IMG/VR virus record: IMGVR_UViG_3300045988_156524
Strand: one strand, 5' to 3'
Source: a virus
Lineage: Duplodnaviria; Heunggongvirae; Uroviricota; Caudoviricetes
DNA length: 64,000 nucleotides
The first letter of the stretch is position 1. Each line of letters starts with the position of its first letter. The position numbers were made by a program, and so were the translations under genes. This document shows positions 26,918 to 48,820 of the stretch, piece after piece. The notes under the pieces are model-generated. The model saw nothing but the letters and a program-made list of their open reading frames with translations, did no database searches and was not told where the DNA came from.

Positions 26918-27049
26918 GGTAGATATTTTGTTTCTCGCGAATCACATTTTTTCACTTCAGTACCTGTGTGCTATACTCCTTCTTGATTGATTGGATGCGG
27001 AATACAAACCCGCTCTTTTGTGCAGCCTGGCTCCTTGCCAGGCTTTTTT

Positions 27050-28938: not shown

Positions 28939-28955
28939 AGAATTATTAGAGCAAT
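28939..28955 (-). promoter_or_regulatory. C1 operator
   Basis: Reverse complement ATTGCTCTAATAATTCT. Confidence 0.55.
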
Positions 28956-29022
28956 AAAAAATTGAGAGTAAAATCCCACTCCACCAGCCAAATACTGGAT
29001 TGTTTTTCATAGTCGTTTGACA

Positions 29023-29039
29023 ATTGCTCTAATAAATTA
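29023..29039 (+). promoter_or_regulatory. C1 operator
   Basis: ATTGCTCTAATAAATTA, 1 mismatch to consensus. Confidence 0.6.
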
Positions 29040-45758: not shown

Positions 45759-46484
45759 CTACTGAATACGCTCAAACTCGATTACCCAAACCCAGGGATT
45801 AGCGCTCCAGCTTTCTTCGCCGTAGATGGATTCCCACAGGCGCTGGAACGCAACCTTGGCCATTGCGAAATCCCCCTTGGGAGTAAGGAATGTTCCCGGG
45901 TGATCAGGAAGCAAACTTCCAGCAGGCGGAACACCCTCATCCCTTGCATCGCATTCGCTGATATCGTTCAACCGCTCAACGCGCACGTTGGTAATTTCCA
46001 CCAGGATGCGTGATGCCCATCGCGGCATGTGAATTGATGGACGCCACCCACCATCAAACTTTTCATTCACAGTGTGAGGTTTCCAGTCGGCATCATCGGG
46101 TATCGACCATAAACCGTAATCACCAGGCTTTTGCTCACAACTGGCCCGATAAATCCTTGCTGCGTTCTTCTCATCGCCACGACAAAGGTTGTCGTTCCAG
46201 TCCACACTGCAACCATCTTCATTGCCTAATATCGCCCATGTTTCACGAACCCAAATTCGATCGCCGACGATACCAAAGGGGCAATTGAAAACACTGCTTA
46301 CACCATCAGCCCCGTACCACTGAAAACCTGCACCAATTTTTCTAACCATCACTGGTGCTTCTGGACCAACTTCCGCAGGCTGATTTTTCATTATCCGCCG
46401 CGTCTGCGTTTTCCTTCCTTCGAGGATGGCCCGGACCATCTCATCGTTAAAAATCATGCCGCGCTCTTTCACTTCGCCTTTCAT
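45759..46484 (-). CDS. Hypothetical protein (241 aa)
   Basis: ATG with GGGGG RBS directly after the 28-aa peptide gene. Confidence 0.45.
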   Translation of the reverse strand: MKGEVKERGMIFNDEMVRAILEGRKTQTRRIMKNQPAEVGPEAPVMVRKIGAGFQWYGADGVSSVFNCPFGIVGDRIWVRETWAILGNEDGCSVDWNDNLCRGDEKNAARIYRASCEQKPGDYGLWSIPDDADWKPHTVNEKFDGGWRPSIHMPRWASRILVEITNVRVERLNDISECDARDEGVPPAGSLLPDHPGTFLTPKGDFAMAKVAFQRLWESIYGEESWSANPWVWVIEFERIQ

Positions 46485-46493
46485 GCATCCCCC

Positions 46494-46580
46494 TTACCCA
46501 TGTGCGACGATGCCGCCAAAAGTGATAGAGAACAGCCAGAAATAGATCGCGGCCATAATGATTTTGAATGCCGTGTTCAT
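46494..46580 (-). CDS. Small hydrophobic peptide, 28 aa (MNTAFKIIMAAIYFWLFSITFGGIVAHG)
   Basis: ATG with AGGAGCTG RBS; sits between a C1 operator/hairpin and the next gene; below track cut-off. Confidence 0.4.
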   Translation of the reverse strand: MNTAFKIIMAAIYFWLFSITFGGIVAHG

Positions 46581-46662
46581 ATTTTCAGCTCCTGTGATTG
46601 ATTGGATACATGCCGCGCCTTGCGGCATGTTTTTATTTTCACTTTCTCTGTTTTAAAAATCA

Positions 46663-46679
46663 AGATTTATTAGAGCAAT
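46663..46679 (-). promoter_or_regulatory. C1 operator
   Basis: Reverse complement ATTGCTCTAATAAATCT. Confidence 0.55.
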
Positions 46680-47185
46680 TATTGTTGGTGGAGAAGCGCG
46701 TTTTCATACTCCCTGACCATTAACGTAAGTACGCCGTGACTCCTGAAAACACGCGCCACTTCAATCTTATCTTCCAGCGCGAACGCAATTTTACTTAGAC
46801 CAATTTTCTTCAGGAGATCAATCTTTGCTGGACCGTCATTTCTGTCATCGGTGGCAGGACGCATAGATAGCAAAGGCTCAGCCCCATTTGTTACGTGCTT
46901 ACGCAACCAGGCTCGTGTTTTATCCCTGGCTATCTCACAGCGCCCGGTTACAAACCAGAGGGTGTAAATGCCGGACAACTGGCGCACCATATCAATAACT
47001 GGAGTGATGGGAGCATCAGTGTCACAGGCAAGGTTAAACTCGTTCCAGTGCTCTGTTAATGCACCTTTGCCAGGTGGTGGAAGTAAATGCAGCCTGTCTT
47101 CCGTTGCCTCTGATATCGTCCCATCAATATCTACTATGACGATGTACGGACGTTCCTGGTGTGCGTGTTTATTGAAAATACTCAA
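46679..47185 (-). CDS. HAD-superfamily phosphatase-like protein (168 aa)
   Basis: N-terminal IVIVDIDGTIS (DxDGT) motif; TTG start after GAGGAGGG. Confidence 0.55.
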   Translation of the reverse strand: MSIFNKHAHQERPYIVIVDIDGTISEATEDRLHLLPPPGKGALTEHWNEFNLACDTDAPITPVIDMVRQLSGIYTLWFVTGRCEIARDKTRAWLRKHVTNGAEPLLSMRPATDDRNDGPAKIDLLKKIGLSKIAFALEDKIEVARVFRSHGVLTLMVREYENALLHQQ

Positions 47186-47257
47186 ATGCCCTCCTCATTG
47201 GACGAAAAAAATGCTGGTGGGCGCACTCCACCAGCATTAAATGTGACACTGTAACTA

Positions 47258-48754: not shown

Positions 48755-48771
48755 ATTGCTCTAATAAAAAA
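48755..48771 (+). promoter_or_regulatory. C1 operator
   Basis: ATTGCTCTAATAAAAAA. Confidence 0.55.
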
Positions 48772-48803: not shown

Positions 48804-48820
48804 GGAATTATTAGAGCAAT
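48804..48820 (-). promoter_or_regulatory. C1 operator, inverted relative to 48755-48771
   Basis: Reverse complement ATTGCTCTAATAATTCC. Confidence 0.55.

What the first reader, a model, noticed from the sequence alone, without database searches (positions are those of the whole stretch)
46494..46680. 28-aa hydrophobic peptide gene behind a C1 operator and leader hairpin
A C1 operator (46663-46679), then a stable hairpin (ACATGCCGC-gcctt-GCGGCATGT), then a strongly SD-led 28-codon ORF (MNTAFKIIMAAIYFWLFSITFGGIVAHG), all immediately upstream of a 241-aa gene. The layout suggests a repressor-controlled unit with a leader peptide or a small membrane effector.
Basis: seen in the sequence. Interest (0 to 1): 0.5.

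Follow-up and report, generated by a model that had tools for sequence, protein, structure and literature searches.

The report
Unannotated small membrane-protein gene in P1
Behind a long-known repressor binding site of phage P1 lies a small gene missing from the reference annotation; it encodes a 28-residue membrane peptide, follows a conserved RNA hairpin, is kept in all P1-like phage-plasmids examined, and has no known function.

Summary
The window is a P1-like phage-plasmid. The operator is P1's annotated Op88/OpmgT, and the 241-aa gene is a PmgT homologue.

What is new is the comparative evidence. Six lineages of P1-like elements (Escherichia, Salmonella, Cronobacter and metagenomic) share the same layout:
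- a C1 operator overlapping a -35 box, a 17-nt spacer and a NANAAT -10;
- a GC-rich hairpin starting 3-7 nt after the -10;
- a CA-rich unstructured linker, a GGAG Shine-Dalgarno sequence, and a short ORF.

The hairpin sequence differs between lineages but keeps pairing through compensatory changes. The ORF (28-53 aa) is under protein-level purifying selection: synonymous sites are saturated and second codon positions are the most conserved. It encodes one transmembrane helix. It is intact in 83 of 84 P1-type loci, including those where a convergent type I restriction cassette leaves it as the only gene in the unit.

Best reading: this is the first cistron of the C1-repressed Op88 early operon. 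It encodes a small membrane protein, is expressed from an mRNA with a 5'-terminal stem-loop, and sits at the edge of a recombination hot spot with variable cargo downstream.

The attenuator and type I toxin/antisense readings are disfavoured. The peptide's function is untested. Known kind of thing; moderate interest.

The parts
46679..47185 (-). pap (3'-phosphatase / polynucleotide kinase-like, 168 aa). Its stop codon TAA (46681-46679) shares one base with the operator.
   Evidence: phrog_415, polynucleotide kinase. Absent in the Salmonella and L101 lineages, where the operator-hairpin-sORF unit follows pmgS directly.
46663..46679 (-). C1 repressor operator, homologous to P1 Op88 / OpmgT (ATTGCTCTAATAAATCT).
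   Evidence: 1 mismatch to the consensus; 15 sites in the window against 0.37 expected. (annotated protein_bind OpmgT in NC_005856). Conserved in six lineages.
46635..46663 (-). Sigma-70-type promoter (Lobocka's predicted P1pmgT): -35 TTGATT 46663-46658, 17-nt spacer, -10 GAAAAT 46640-46635.
   Evidence: annotation.: -35 TTGATT/TTGTTT, spacer exactly 17 nt and -10 NANAAT in all six lineages, although the spacer sequences differ. The simple consensus scan does not flag it (8 of 12 matches).
46608..46630 (-). GC-rich stem-loop (9 bp, loop AAGGC) starting 4 nt after the -10, so at the predicted 5' end of the mRNA. On the plus strand the same palindrome, followed by TTTTATTTT, looks like an intrinsic terminator.
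   Evidence: A hairpin with a different sequence sits at the same place in five other lineages. Covariation is shown.
46589..46607 (-). Unstructured CA-rich linker (CAATCAATCA at 46604-46595) and SD AGGAG (46593-46589), 8 nt before the ATG.
   Evidence: unpaired in the MFE and centroid folds of all lineages; CAATCA...GGAG conserved.
46494..46580 (-). Small ORF of 28 codons plus TAA, MNTAFKIIMAAIYFWLFSITFGGIVAHG: one transmembrane helix. First cistron of the Op88 unit.
   Evidence: pS 0.6-1.0 against pN 0.2-0.5, with codon position 2 least variable; intact in 83 of 84 loci; mean Kyte-Doolittle hydropathy (KD) 2.1 over residues 7-25; a family of 28-53 aa; helix over residues 2-27 in the 46-aa homologue.
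46485..46493 (-). 9-nt gap holding the SD (GGGGGA) of the next gene. The recombination junction lies at 46490/46489, beyond which the downstream cargo differs between relatives.
   Evidence: matches end at query position 211 or 271, which is window 46490.
45759..46484 (-). 241-aa PmgT-like gene (function unknown), the first of the variable cargo genes of the operon.
   Evidence: phrog_874, unknown function; only a sub-threshold ASCH hit.

Best explanation
This is the control region and first cistron of the C1-repressed Op88 (OpmgT) early operon of a P1-like phage-plasmid.

In the lysogen, C1 sits on the operator, whose last base is the first base of the -35 box, and blocks a sigma-70 promoter. 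When C1 is inactivated, transcription starts at or within a few bases of the foot of a GC-rich stem-loop. This gives the mRNA a 5'-terminal hairpin. By inference, the hairpin protects the mRNA from 5'-end-dependent decay by RNase E and RppH.

An unstructured CA-rich linker and a strong SD then drive translation of a 28-residue peptide. The peptide is essentially one transmembrane helix and is a small inner-membrane protein made early in lytic growth. The SD of the next gene lies at or just after the end of this ORF, so the variable downstream genes are probably translationally coupled to it.

Shown here: the identity of the operator, the conserved promoter geometry, the covarying hairpin, protein-level selection on the ORF, its hydrophobic helix, and the recombination junction at its 3' end.

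Inferred, not shown: the transcription start site, the stabilising role of the hairpin, membrane insertion, translational coupling, and what the peptide does in the membrane.
For: Operator and predicted promoters are annotated in P1. The site matches the consensus at 16 of 17 positions.

Six lineages keep the same layout: operator, -35 TTGATT/TTGTTT, a spacer of exactly 17 nt, -10 NANAAT, a stem 3-7 nt further on, a 15-22-nt linker containing CAATCA, GGAG, and ATG. The distance from stem foot to ATG is 50-57 nt.

The stems differ in sequence but stay paired. On seven non-P1 sequences, 6 of 10 pairs carry changes on both sides. 87% of cells are paired, against 16-55% when the 3' partner is slid by 1-3 columns, and 0 of 500 shuffles reach the observed covariation score. 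The P1 stem is yet another sequence at the same place.

Single-sided changes mostly give G.U pairs in the sense RNA: 46622 C>U in 12 loci, 46629 C>U, L107, and L094. All six leaders fold into the 5' hairpin with the SD left free.

For the ORF, synonymous sites are saturated (pS 0.6-1.0) while pN is 0.2-0.5. Differences per codon position 1/2/3 are, for example, 9/5/15 and 12/4/19. M1, K6, A11 and W15 are invariant. The best 19-residue window has mean Kyte-Doolittle hydropathy (KD) 2.0-2.4. AlphaFold2 predicts a helix over residues 2-27.

The ORF has 28 intact codons in 83 of 84 P1-type loci. About 22 of these carry a convergent hsdR cassette, so the ORF is the only gene of the unit there.

The next gene starts 9 nt (P1) or 5 nt (Salmonella) after the stop, or overlaps it as ATGA or TGATG.

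The full module is in 564 of 5,426 complete E. coli genomes.
Against: No transcription start site, ribosome-profiling, proteomic or phenotypic data exist for this ORF; none was found in the literature searches.

The promoter hexamers are weak (4 of 6 each) and the simple scan does not call them. P1's annotation also predicts a second promoter, P2pmgT, 15 nt upstream. Transcripts from it would carry the hairpin internally.

Within the closely related P1-type loci alone, the substitutions in the ORF are 5 synonymous and 9 non-synonymous. That is only weak selection at this scale.

The C-terminal tail (0-25 residues) is not conserved.

CRISPRi knock-down of pap, pmgT, pmgU and pmgV gave no plating defect (PMC10695390), so the operon is dispensable in the laboratory.
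Confidence: 0.6

Rival explanations
1. The short ORF is only a cis-acting leader. Under this reading, what matters is that it is translated, not its product. Translation would open the mRNA and deliver ribosomes to whatever cargo gene recombination has placed behind it, like a natural 'bicistronic design' adaptor. An attenuation-type leader peptide is the other variant of this idea.
For: The ORF sits at the start of the operon, with the next gene's SD in its last codons or just after the stop. The recombination junction lies exactly after that SD at 46490/46489, and the downstream genes differ between relatives. PMC9603915 lists pmgT-humD as a hypervariable region. Junctions at the stop codon give peptides with unrelated tails, so the C-terminus is tolerant.
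Against: The amino-acid sequence of the helix is conserved while synonymous sites are saturated. A pure 'any translation will do' leader would not need that. The ORF remains intact in about 22 loci where a convergent hsdR follows and there is nothing to couple to. For attenuation, no hairpin with a U-run and no alternative pairing lies between the ORF and the next gene, because the gap is at most 9 nt. The conserved part is N-terminal, not next to the stop codon.
Confidence: 0.17
2. Type I toxin-antitoxin-like module. The hydrophobic peptide would be a membrane toxin. An antisense RNA made from the plus strand, ending at the hairpin plus TTTTATTTT terminator, would silence it.
For: The peptide is small and hydrophobic. 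On the plus strand the palindrome followed by TTTTATTTTC scores as an intrinsic terminator. The plus-strand RNA folds better than shuffles (z = -2.86).
Against: The T-run on the antisense side exists only in the P1 type. The other five lineages have none on either side. Wobble pairs favour folding of the sense RNA, with one singleton going the other way. No promoter-like site was found on the plus strand. There is no match to any toxin family in Pfam or NCBIfam, and no match in PADLOC (anti-phage defence systems). The unit is already switched off by C1.
Confidence: 0.06
3. The hairpin is mainly a transcription terminator. It would either end pap transcription (sense strand) or stop convergent transcription, for example from an inserted hsdR cassette, from running back into pap and pmgS (antisense strand).
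For: One search shows a canonical terminator on the plus strand in the P1 type. About a quarter of P1-type loci carry a convergent hsdR ending about 80 nt beyond the ORF. P1's annotation notes the same segment downstream of the EcoDXXI and R124/3 hsd loci.
Against: No U-run follows the stem on the sense strand in any lineage. There is no T-run on the antisense strand outside the P1 type. In the pap-less Salmonella and L101 lineages, pmgS is followed by a T-rich run upstream of the operator, yet the hairpin remains downstream of the promoter. The hairpin therefore travels with the promoter and sORF, not with pap. At most this is a secondary role confined to the P1 type.
Confidence: 0.1
4. The ORF is a chance open frame in a regulatory leader and is not translated.
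For: It is absent from the P1 reference annotation. Other annotations use a different start, giving a 44-aa product.
Against: Homologues with 32-58% identity to the Salmonella or P1 peptide sit at the same position in five other lineages. They show the substitution pattern of a coding sequence, and the other two frames show less contrast. The SD and its spacing are conserved. The frame is intact in 83 of 84 loci.
Confidence: 0.03

Closest known systems
Phage P1 operator Op88 / OpmgT with predicted promoters P1pmgT and P2pmgT (annotation of NC_005856)
   Same: Same locus: 16 of 17 matches to the C1 consensus, directly after pap and upstream of pmgT. The annotated -35 and -10 map onto 46663-46658 and 46640-46635.
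   Different: The reference annotation has no gene and no RNA structure between the operator and pmgT. The hairpin and the 28-codon ORF are not annotated there.
5'-terminal stem-loops that stabilise E. coli mRNAs, such as the ompA 5' UTR hairpin (from my own knowledge of Belasco and colleagues' work)
   Same: A stable GC-rich hairpin within a few nucleotides of the predicted 5' end, followed by a single-stranded stretch and the ribosome binding site.
   Different: The 5' end is predicted from promoter geometry, not mapped. No half-life data exist. The loop sequence is partly conserved among the non-P1 lineages (xxxCUxxCA), which could mean a specific partner and not plain end protection.
Small (<=50 aa) single-helix membrane proteins of enterobacteria and their phages, such as MgrB, AcrZ, MgtS, PmrR and KdpF (from my own knowledge)
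   Same: Similar size, one hydrophobic helix, a strong ribosome binding site of its own, and omission from gene annotation.
   Different: No sequence similarity to any of them. The family is confined to P1-like elements: 12 proteins at E <= 0.001 among 1.84 billion representatives. No partner or phenotype is known.
Type I toxins (Hok, Ldr, TisB, Ibs, ShoB, ZorO, DinQ)
   Same: A short hydrophobic peptide. In the P1 type, a terminator-like hairpin faces the antisense direction.
   Different: No family match, no antisense promoter, and no conserved antisense terminator. Control is by a protein repressor.
Synthetic 'bicistronic design' translation-initiation cassettes (Mutalik et al. 2013, from my own knowledge), and natural translationally coupled leader cistrons
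   Same: A short leader ORF with a strong SD that carries the SD of the next gene at its 3' end and stops next to the next start codon. The leader is constant and the cargo is variable.
   Different: Here the leader's amino-acid sequence is itself under selection. It also persists where no cargo follows.

Membership tests
P1 C1-controlled operator (Op88/OpmgT) | 17-bp asymmetric site matching ATTGCTCTAATAAATTT | tested here: met
   16 of 17 matches at 46679-46663. The window has 15 such sites against 0.37 expected.
P1 C1-controlled operator (Op88/OpmgT) | Same position as the annotated OpmgT of P1 (overlapping the pap stop codon, upstream of pmgT) | tested here: met
   97-99% identical DNA; the feature table of NC_005856 places OpmgT there.
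P1 C1-controlled operator (Op88/OpmgT) | Binding by C1 and repression of the adjacent promoter | not testable with these tools
   Rests on the record's annotation, which points to GenBank M25414 and X98146. The original papers are not in the held library.
Sigma-70 promoter | -35 and -10 hexamers with a 16-18-nt spacer | tested here: inconclusive
   TTGATT, 17 nt, GAAAAT gives 8 of 12 matches, below the scan's threshold. The same geometry is kept in six lineages with diverged spacers.
5'-terminal stabilising stem-loop | A stable hairpin whose structure is conserved | tested here: met
   Folds. Covariation: 6 of 10 pairs changed on both sides, 87% of cells paired.
5'-terminal stabilising stem-loop | Hairpin within a few unpaired nucleotides of the mapped 5' end, and a longer mRNA half-life that depends on the stem | not testable with these tools
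   The stem starts 3-7 nt after the -10, so the start site should fall at its foot. No 5' end or half-life data are available.
Small single-pass membrane protein | One hydrophobic stretch of about 19 residues or more with high hydropathy, predicted to be helical | tested here: met
   Mean Kyte-Doolittle hydropathy (KD) 2.0-2.4 over 19 residues in all lineages. AlphaFold2 helix over residues 2-27, with pLDDT 86-92 over the first 20 residues.
Small single-pass membrane protein | Translated, and found in the membrane fraction | not testable with these tools
   Only indirect support: the coding substitution pattern and the conserved SD.
Type I toxin-antitoxin | Peptide belongs to a known toxin family | tested here: not met
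   No Pfam or NCBIfam match at E <= 1, and no PADLOC match at E <= 0.1.
Type I toxin-antitoxin | Antisense or divergent RNA gene with its own promoter and terminator overlapping the toxin mRNA | tested here: not met
   No plus-strand promoter-like site. The antisense T-run is present only in the P1 type. Rfam gives only a sub-threshold GcvB hit, 20 bits against a gathering score of 42.
Attenuation-type leader peptide | Terminator/antiterminator (or SD-sequestering) structures between the leader ORF and the regulated gene | tested here: not met
   The gap to the next gene is 9 nt or less, or the two overlap. No hairpin with a U-run lies downstream.
Sec signal peptide / lipoprotein precursor | Short hydrophobic region followed by a cleavage site and a mature domain | tested here: not met
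   Read directly from the sequences. The P1-type peptide ends 3 residues after the helix, so there is no mature part. There is no lipobox, and the hydrophobic region is about 19-20 residues. The Salmonella and L101 forms do have A-x-A-like motifs (AKA, VKA), but these are not conserved.

The most novel reading that the evidence does not exclude
The promoter, 5' hairpin, CA-rich linker and 28-codon ORF together form a conserved 'expression adaptor' at the edge of a recombination hot spot. Any cargo gene that recombination drops behind the ORF's stop codon inherits C1 control, a stabilised 5' end and a pre-made coupled ribosome binding site. The leader product itself would be a membrane-active early protein, for example one that acts on a host membrane protein or the membrane potential during the switch to lytic growth. 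This would be a natural counterpart of synthetic bicistronic insulators, doubling as a functional micro-protein.
Probability: 0.2. Interest if true: 0.6.

Novelty: new member of a known kind. Interest (0 to 1): 0.4.

Why it matters
P1 is one of the most used and best annotated phages, and P1-like phage-plasmids are common carriers of resistance genes. The full module is present in about 10% of complete E. coli genomes.

A conserved, repressor-controlled micro-protein at the head of the most variable early operon is missing from the reference annotation, and automatic pipelines give it the wrong start codon. Correcting this would:
- add a gene to P1;
- give a defined 5' leader whose role in mRNA stability and expression can be tested;
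- offer a handle on how swapped accessory genes are expressed after recombination.

It does not change any general concept. Small membrane proteins, 5' hairpins and coupled cistrons are all known devices.

Tried and rejected
1. Within-P1-type variation (80 IMG/VR loci) was too shallow to decide on coding: 5 synonymous against 9 non-synonymous variable sites. The case rests on the diverged lineages.

2. Pap-based tblastn found only unrelated siphovirus polynucleotide kinases at 40% identity or less, so it gave no synteny information.

3. The PmgS-based scan of species-representative genomes returned only two near-identical E. coli loci. The PmgS tblastn on plasmids showed that diverged relatives exist, but the 'spread' listing did not show them.

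4. MAFFT aligns the P1 hairpin 5 nt out of register with the others. The tool-based covariation count was therefore made on the seven non-P1 sequences only. The P1 stem was compared by position.

5. The 44-aa reading (ATG at 46628 inside the stem), used by PGAP and in SJ46, is rejected. It has no SD, its start codon is paired in the stem, and no other lineage has an in-frame upstream start.

6. The Rfam search gave only a sub-threshold GcvB hit on the plus strand (20 bits against a gathering score of 42). The likely cause is the terminator-like hairpin, and I treat the hit as chance.

7. The 84-bp copies of the ORF in F-type plasmids are not an independent module. They begin at codon 3 and lie between an IS1 element about 55 bp upstream and a convergent hsdR, so I read them as remnants of the hsd-carrying P1-type arrangement.

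8. Eight of the nine metagenome matches to the leader pattern were chance hits in unrelated GC-rich DNA.

9. Literature: no paper in the held library mentions the peptide or maps the Op88 transcript. Lobocka et al. 2004 is not held.
Full report
**What the window is.** The 1.6 kb around the finding is 97-99% identical to phage P1 and its relatives. In the P1 reference record the same stretch reads pmgS, pap, operator OpmgT (formerly Op88) with two predicted sigma-70 promoters, then pmgT. All of these lie on the window's minus strand.

**Check of the observation.**
- The operator ATTGCTCTAATAAATCT lies at 46679-46663. It has one mismatch to the consensus, and the window holds 15 consensus-like sites against 0.37 expected.
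- The palindrome ACATGCCGC/GCGGCATGT lies at 46630-46608.
- AGGAG lies at 46593-46589, 8 nt before the ATG at 46580.
- The ORF runs 28 codons to TAA at 46496-46494.
- The next gene starts 9 nt further on.
- The 67-nt leader folds at -20 kcal/mol, z = -3.0.

**Annotation status.** The P1 reference has nothing between the operator and pmgT. Phage SJ46 and some PGAP records annotate a 44-aa 'membrane protein' or hypothetical protein (WP_001312275.1) that starts at an ATG inside the hairpin. One NCBI record has the 28-aa form. No Pfam, NCBIfam, PHROG or PADLOC family matches the peptide.

**Close relatives are not decisive.** In 80 IMG/VR loci plus phage and plasmid records, the ORF has 28 intact codons in 83 of 84 cases and an identical peptide in 67. 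These sequences are only 1-8% diverged. Variable sites in the ORF split into 5 synonymous and 9 non-synonymous, which on its own is weak evidence.

These loci do show one useful thing. Similarity between relatives stops at 46490/46489, right after the stop codon and the GGGG of the next SD. Downstream there is one of three arrangements:
- a PmgT-like gene of 241-246 aa (309 aa in the P1 reference);
- a 192-195-aa Upf86.8-like gene;
- in about 22 loci, a convergent type I hsdR cassette, which leaves the small ORF as the only gene of the unit.

Several database proteins are the peptide fused to unrelated tails at its stop codon. PMC9603915 lists pmgT-humD as one of eight hypervariable regions of P1-like phage-plasmids.

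The 84-bp copies of the ORF in many F-type plasmids begin at codon 3. They lie between an IS1 element about 55 bp upstream and a convergent hsdR. I read them as IS1-truncated remnants of the hsd-carrying arrangement.

**Diverged relatives decide it.** tblastn with the peptide found a 58%-identical match in a Salmonella P1-like plasmid at the syntenic place, after ppp-pmgQ-pmgR-pmgS. Searching from that sequence, then with a profile, then with a leader DNA pattern, gave further lineages:
- Cronobacter phage JK004 and relatives (53 aa);
- two metagenomic lineages, L094/L095 and L096 (53 aa);
- L101 (48 aa).

An exhaustive profile search of 1.84 billion representatives found only 12 proteins at E <= 0.001, all from this family. 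The family is therefore confined to P1-like elements.

**The ORF is a protein-coding gene.** Over the first 25 codons, synonymous sites are saturated between lineages (pS 0.6-1.0), while pN is 0.2-0.5. Second codon positions, which set hydrophobicity, change least: differences at positions 1/2/3 are 9/5/15, 12/4/19 and 7/3/14 in three example pairs. The other two frames show less contrast.

M1, K6, A11 and W15 are invariant. Every member has a 19-residue window with mean Kyte-Doolittle hydropathy (KD) of 2.0-2.4. AlphaFold2 on the family alignment gives one confident helix over residues 2-27 and a low-confidence tail.

The tail is absent in the P1 type, 20-25 residues long elsewhere, and poorly conserved. 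Only the P1 type has the upstream in-frame ATG, so the conserved start is the SD-led one and the 44-aa annotation is a mis-start.

**The leader is conserved as an architecture.** In all six lineages the operator's last base is the first base of a -35 box (TTGATT or TTGTTT). A spacer of exactly 17 nt follows, with diverged sequence, and then a NANAAT -10. A GC-rich stem starts 3-7 nt later. After the stem comes a 15-22-nt linker containing CAATCA, then GGAG, then the ATG. The distance from stem foot to ATG is 50-57 nt (raw sequences).

This matches the promoter that the P1 record calls P1pmgT. With a start site about 7 nt after the -10 (established knowledge for sigma-70 promoters), the transcript would begin at the foot of the stem.

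**The hairpin is a selected RNA structure in the sense transcript.** The stems differ in sequence:

| Lineage | Stem (5' arm ... 3' arm) |
|---|---|
| P1 type | ACATGCCGC...GCGGCATGT |
| Salmonella | AGGCCAC...GTGGCCT |
| Cronobacter | GGCCGC...GCGGCC |
| L094 | TTGGCGGTCGC...GTGACCGCCGA |
| L096 | TTGGCAGTCAC...GTGACTGCCAA |

On the seven non-P1 sequences, 6 of 10 pairs carry changes on both sides. 87% of cells are paired, against 16-55% when the partners are slid, and 0 of 500 shuffles reach the observed covariation score. With so few, related sequences the shuffle count is only indicative. The slide control and the number of double changes carry more weight.

Single-sided changes give G.U pairs in the sense RNA. 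The same changes would be A.C mismatches in the antisense RNA. They occur in four independent cases, one of them shared by 12 loci. One singleton goes the other way.

All six leaders fold with the hairpin at the 5' end and the SD unpaired.

**The terminator look-alike.** On the window's plus strand the palindrome is followed by TTTTATTTT and scores as an intrinsic terminator. That T-run is simply the A-rich -10 and discriminator region of the P1 type read backwards. The other five lineages have no T-run on either side.

In the pap-less Salmonella and L101 lineages, pmgS is followed by a T-rich run upstream of the operator, while the hairpin stays downstream of the promoter. A conserved role as a terminator, or as the 3' end of an antisense RNA, is therefore unlikely. 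A secondary role against convergent hsdR transcripts in the P1 type remains possible.

No plus-strand promoter-like site was found. Rfam gives only a sub-threshold GcvB hit.

**Relation to the next gene.** The next start codon lies 9 nt (P1 type) or 5 nt (Salmonella) after the stop, or overlaps it as ATGA (Cronobacter, L094, L096) or TGATG (L101). Its SD lies at the end of the small ORF. This is the usual layout for translational coupling, which is inferred here, not shown.

No room or structure for attenuation lies between the two genes. The conserved part of the peptide is the N-terminal helix, not a stalling motif near the stop.

**Most likely mechanism.** C1 on Op88 occludes the -35 box. 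On derepression, an mRNA with a 5'-terminal stem-loop is made. By analogy with the ompA-type 5' hairpins (my own knowledge), the stem-loop should slow 5'-end-dependent decay.

The free CA-rich linker and the strong SD give efficient translation of a 28-residue single-helix membrane protein. Ribosomes that finish this ORF reinitiate on, or open the way to, the variable cargo genes.

My confidence in each step:

| Step | Confidence |
|---|---|
| Real protein-coding gene | about 0.9 |
| Hairpin is a functional sense-strand RNA structure | about 0.8 |
| Peptide is in the membrane | about 0.8 |
| Hairpin acts as an mRNA stabiliser | about 0.5 |
| Translational coupling to the next gene | about 0.5 |

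What the peptide does in the membrane is unknown. The operon is dispensable for plating in a CRISPRi screen (PMC10695390). A preprint on a delta-hfq host reports lower pmgT but higher pap, pmgU and pmgV transcript levels. That is suggestive of post-transcriptional control at this leader, and no more.

**Comparison and verdict.** The operator and promoter are already known. The hairpin and the small gene are not in the reference annotation, and I found no description of them in the held literature. The components themselves are familiar kinds: a 5' stem-loop, a small membrane protein, and a coupled leader cistron. I rate this a new member of a known kind with moderate interest.

It matters mainly because P1 is a reference phage and the module is common. 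The full module is in 564 of 5,426 complete E. coli genomes, and the remnant copy in about 320 more.

Noticed in passing
window 26984-26996 (minus strand): The 13-nt string ATCCAATCAATCA from the Op88 leader (46607-46595) occurs a second time. It lies between the terminator after c8 and the ref operator Oref, again followed by an SD-like AAGGAG but with no start codon. A 13-mer repeat is not expected by chance in 64 kb (my estimate, about 0.002). Its meaning is unknown.
   Followed up: partly
L010 3190-5383, and about 22 other IMG/VR loci (L089, L015, L018, L022, L028 ...): In about a quarter of P1-type loci, a type I restriction gene (hsdR, 703 aa) is inserted convergently directly after the small ORF's stop codon, with a 10-bp palindrome (TCTTGCGGGTT...AACCCGCAAGA) between them. 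This replaces the pmgT-type cargo.
   Followed up: partly
L003 4001-4084 (pZH193); about 320 E. coli genomes: F-type conjugative plasmids carry an 84-bp, 98.8%-identical copy of the small ORF from codon 3 to 4 nt past the stop. It lies between an IS1 element about 55 bp upstream and a convergent hsdR. I read it as a remnant of a P1-like hsd arrangement; it matches the notes on EcoDXXI and R124/3 in the P1 record.
   Followed up: partly
window 46494-46628 (minus strand): Automatic annotation (PGAP WP_001312275.1; SJ46 'membrane protein') starts this gene at an ATG inside the hairpin, giving 44 aa. Comparison with other lineages shows that the SD-led 28-codon start is the conserved one.
   Followed up: yes
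proteins P0009-P0013, P0017, P0019, P0032, P0033; L059, L082: Many database variants of the peptide have unrelated C-terminal extensions that begin at or just before the stop codon, or (P0032, P0033, P0020, L059) further inside the ORF at codon 18-20. Recombination junctions therefore fall repeatedly at the 3' end of this ORF.
   Followed up: partly
L001 3817-4746 against window 45759-46484: PmgT is 309 aa in the P1 reference and overlaps pmgU by about 195 nt. In this window and in most relatives it is 241-246 aa. The reference form may carry a frameshift or a recombinant 3' end.
   Followed up: no
L088, L091, L094, L096, L101 (gene after the small ORF): In all non-P1 lineages the gene coupled to the small ORF is a conserved winged-helix-like protein of about 104 aa (weak MarR_2 hit), followed by a 161-aa protein. 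The P1 type has different cargo at this position.
   Followed up: no
window 47210-47238 (minus strand): A canonical intrinsic terminator (11-bp stem followed by TTTTT) lies between pmgS and pap. This suggests that pap is not simply co-transcribed with pmgR-pmgS.
   Followed up: no
alignment A5 columns 11-19 (loops of the non-P1 hairpins): The 9-nt loops of the Salmonella, Cronobacter, L094/L096 and L101 hairpins share invariant positions (xxxCUxxCA), although the stems covary. This could indicate a sequence-specific partner. The P1-type loop (AAGGC) is different.
   Followed up: no
window 48755-48771 (+) and 48804-48820 (-); 63018-63045; 28939-29039: Further C1-operator-like sites occur in pairs. 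The pair at about 48.8 kb corresponds in position to P1's OpmgRa and OpmgRb (formerly Op86) upstream of pmgR. The other pairs were not mapped to P1 features.
   Followed up: no
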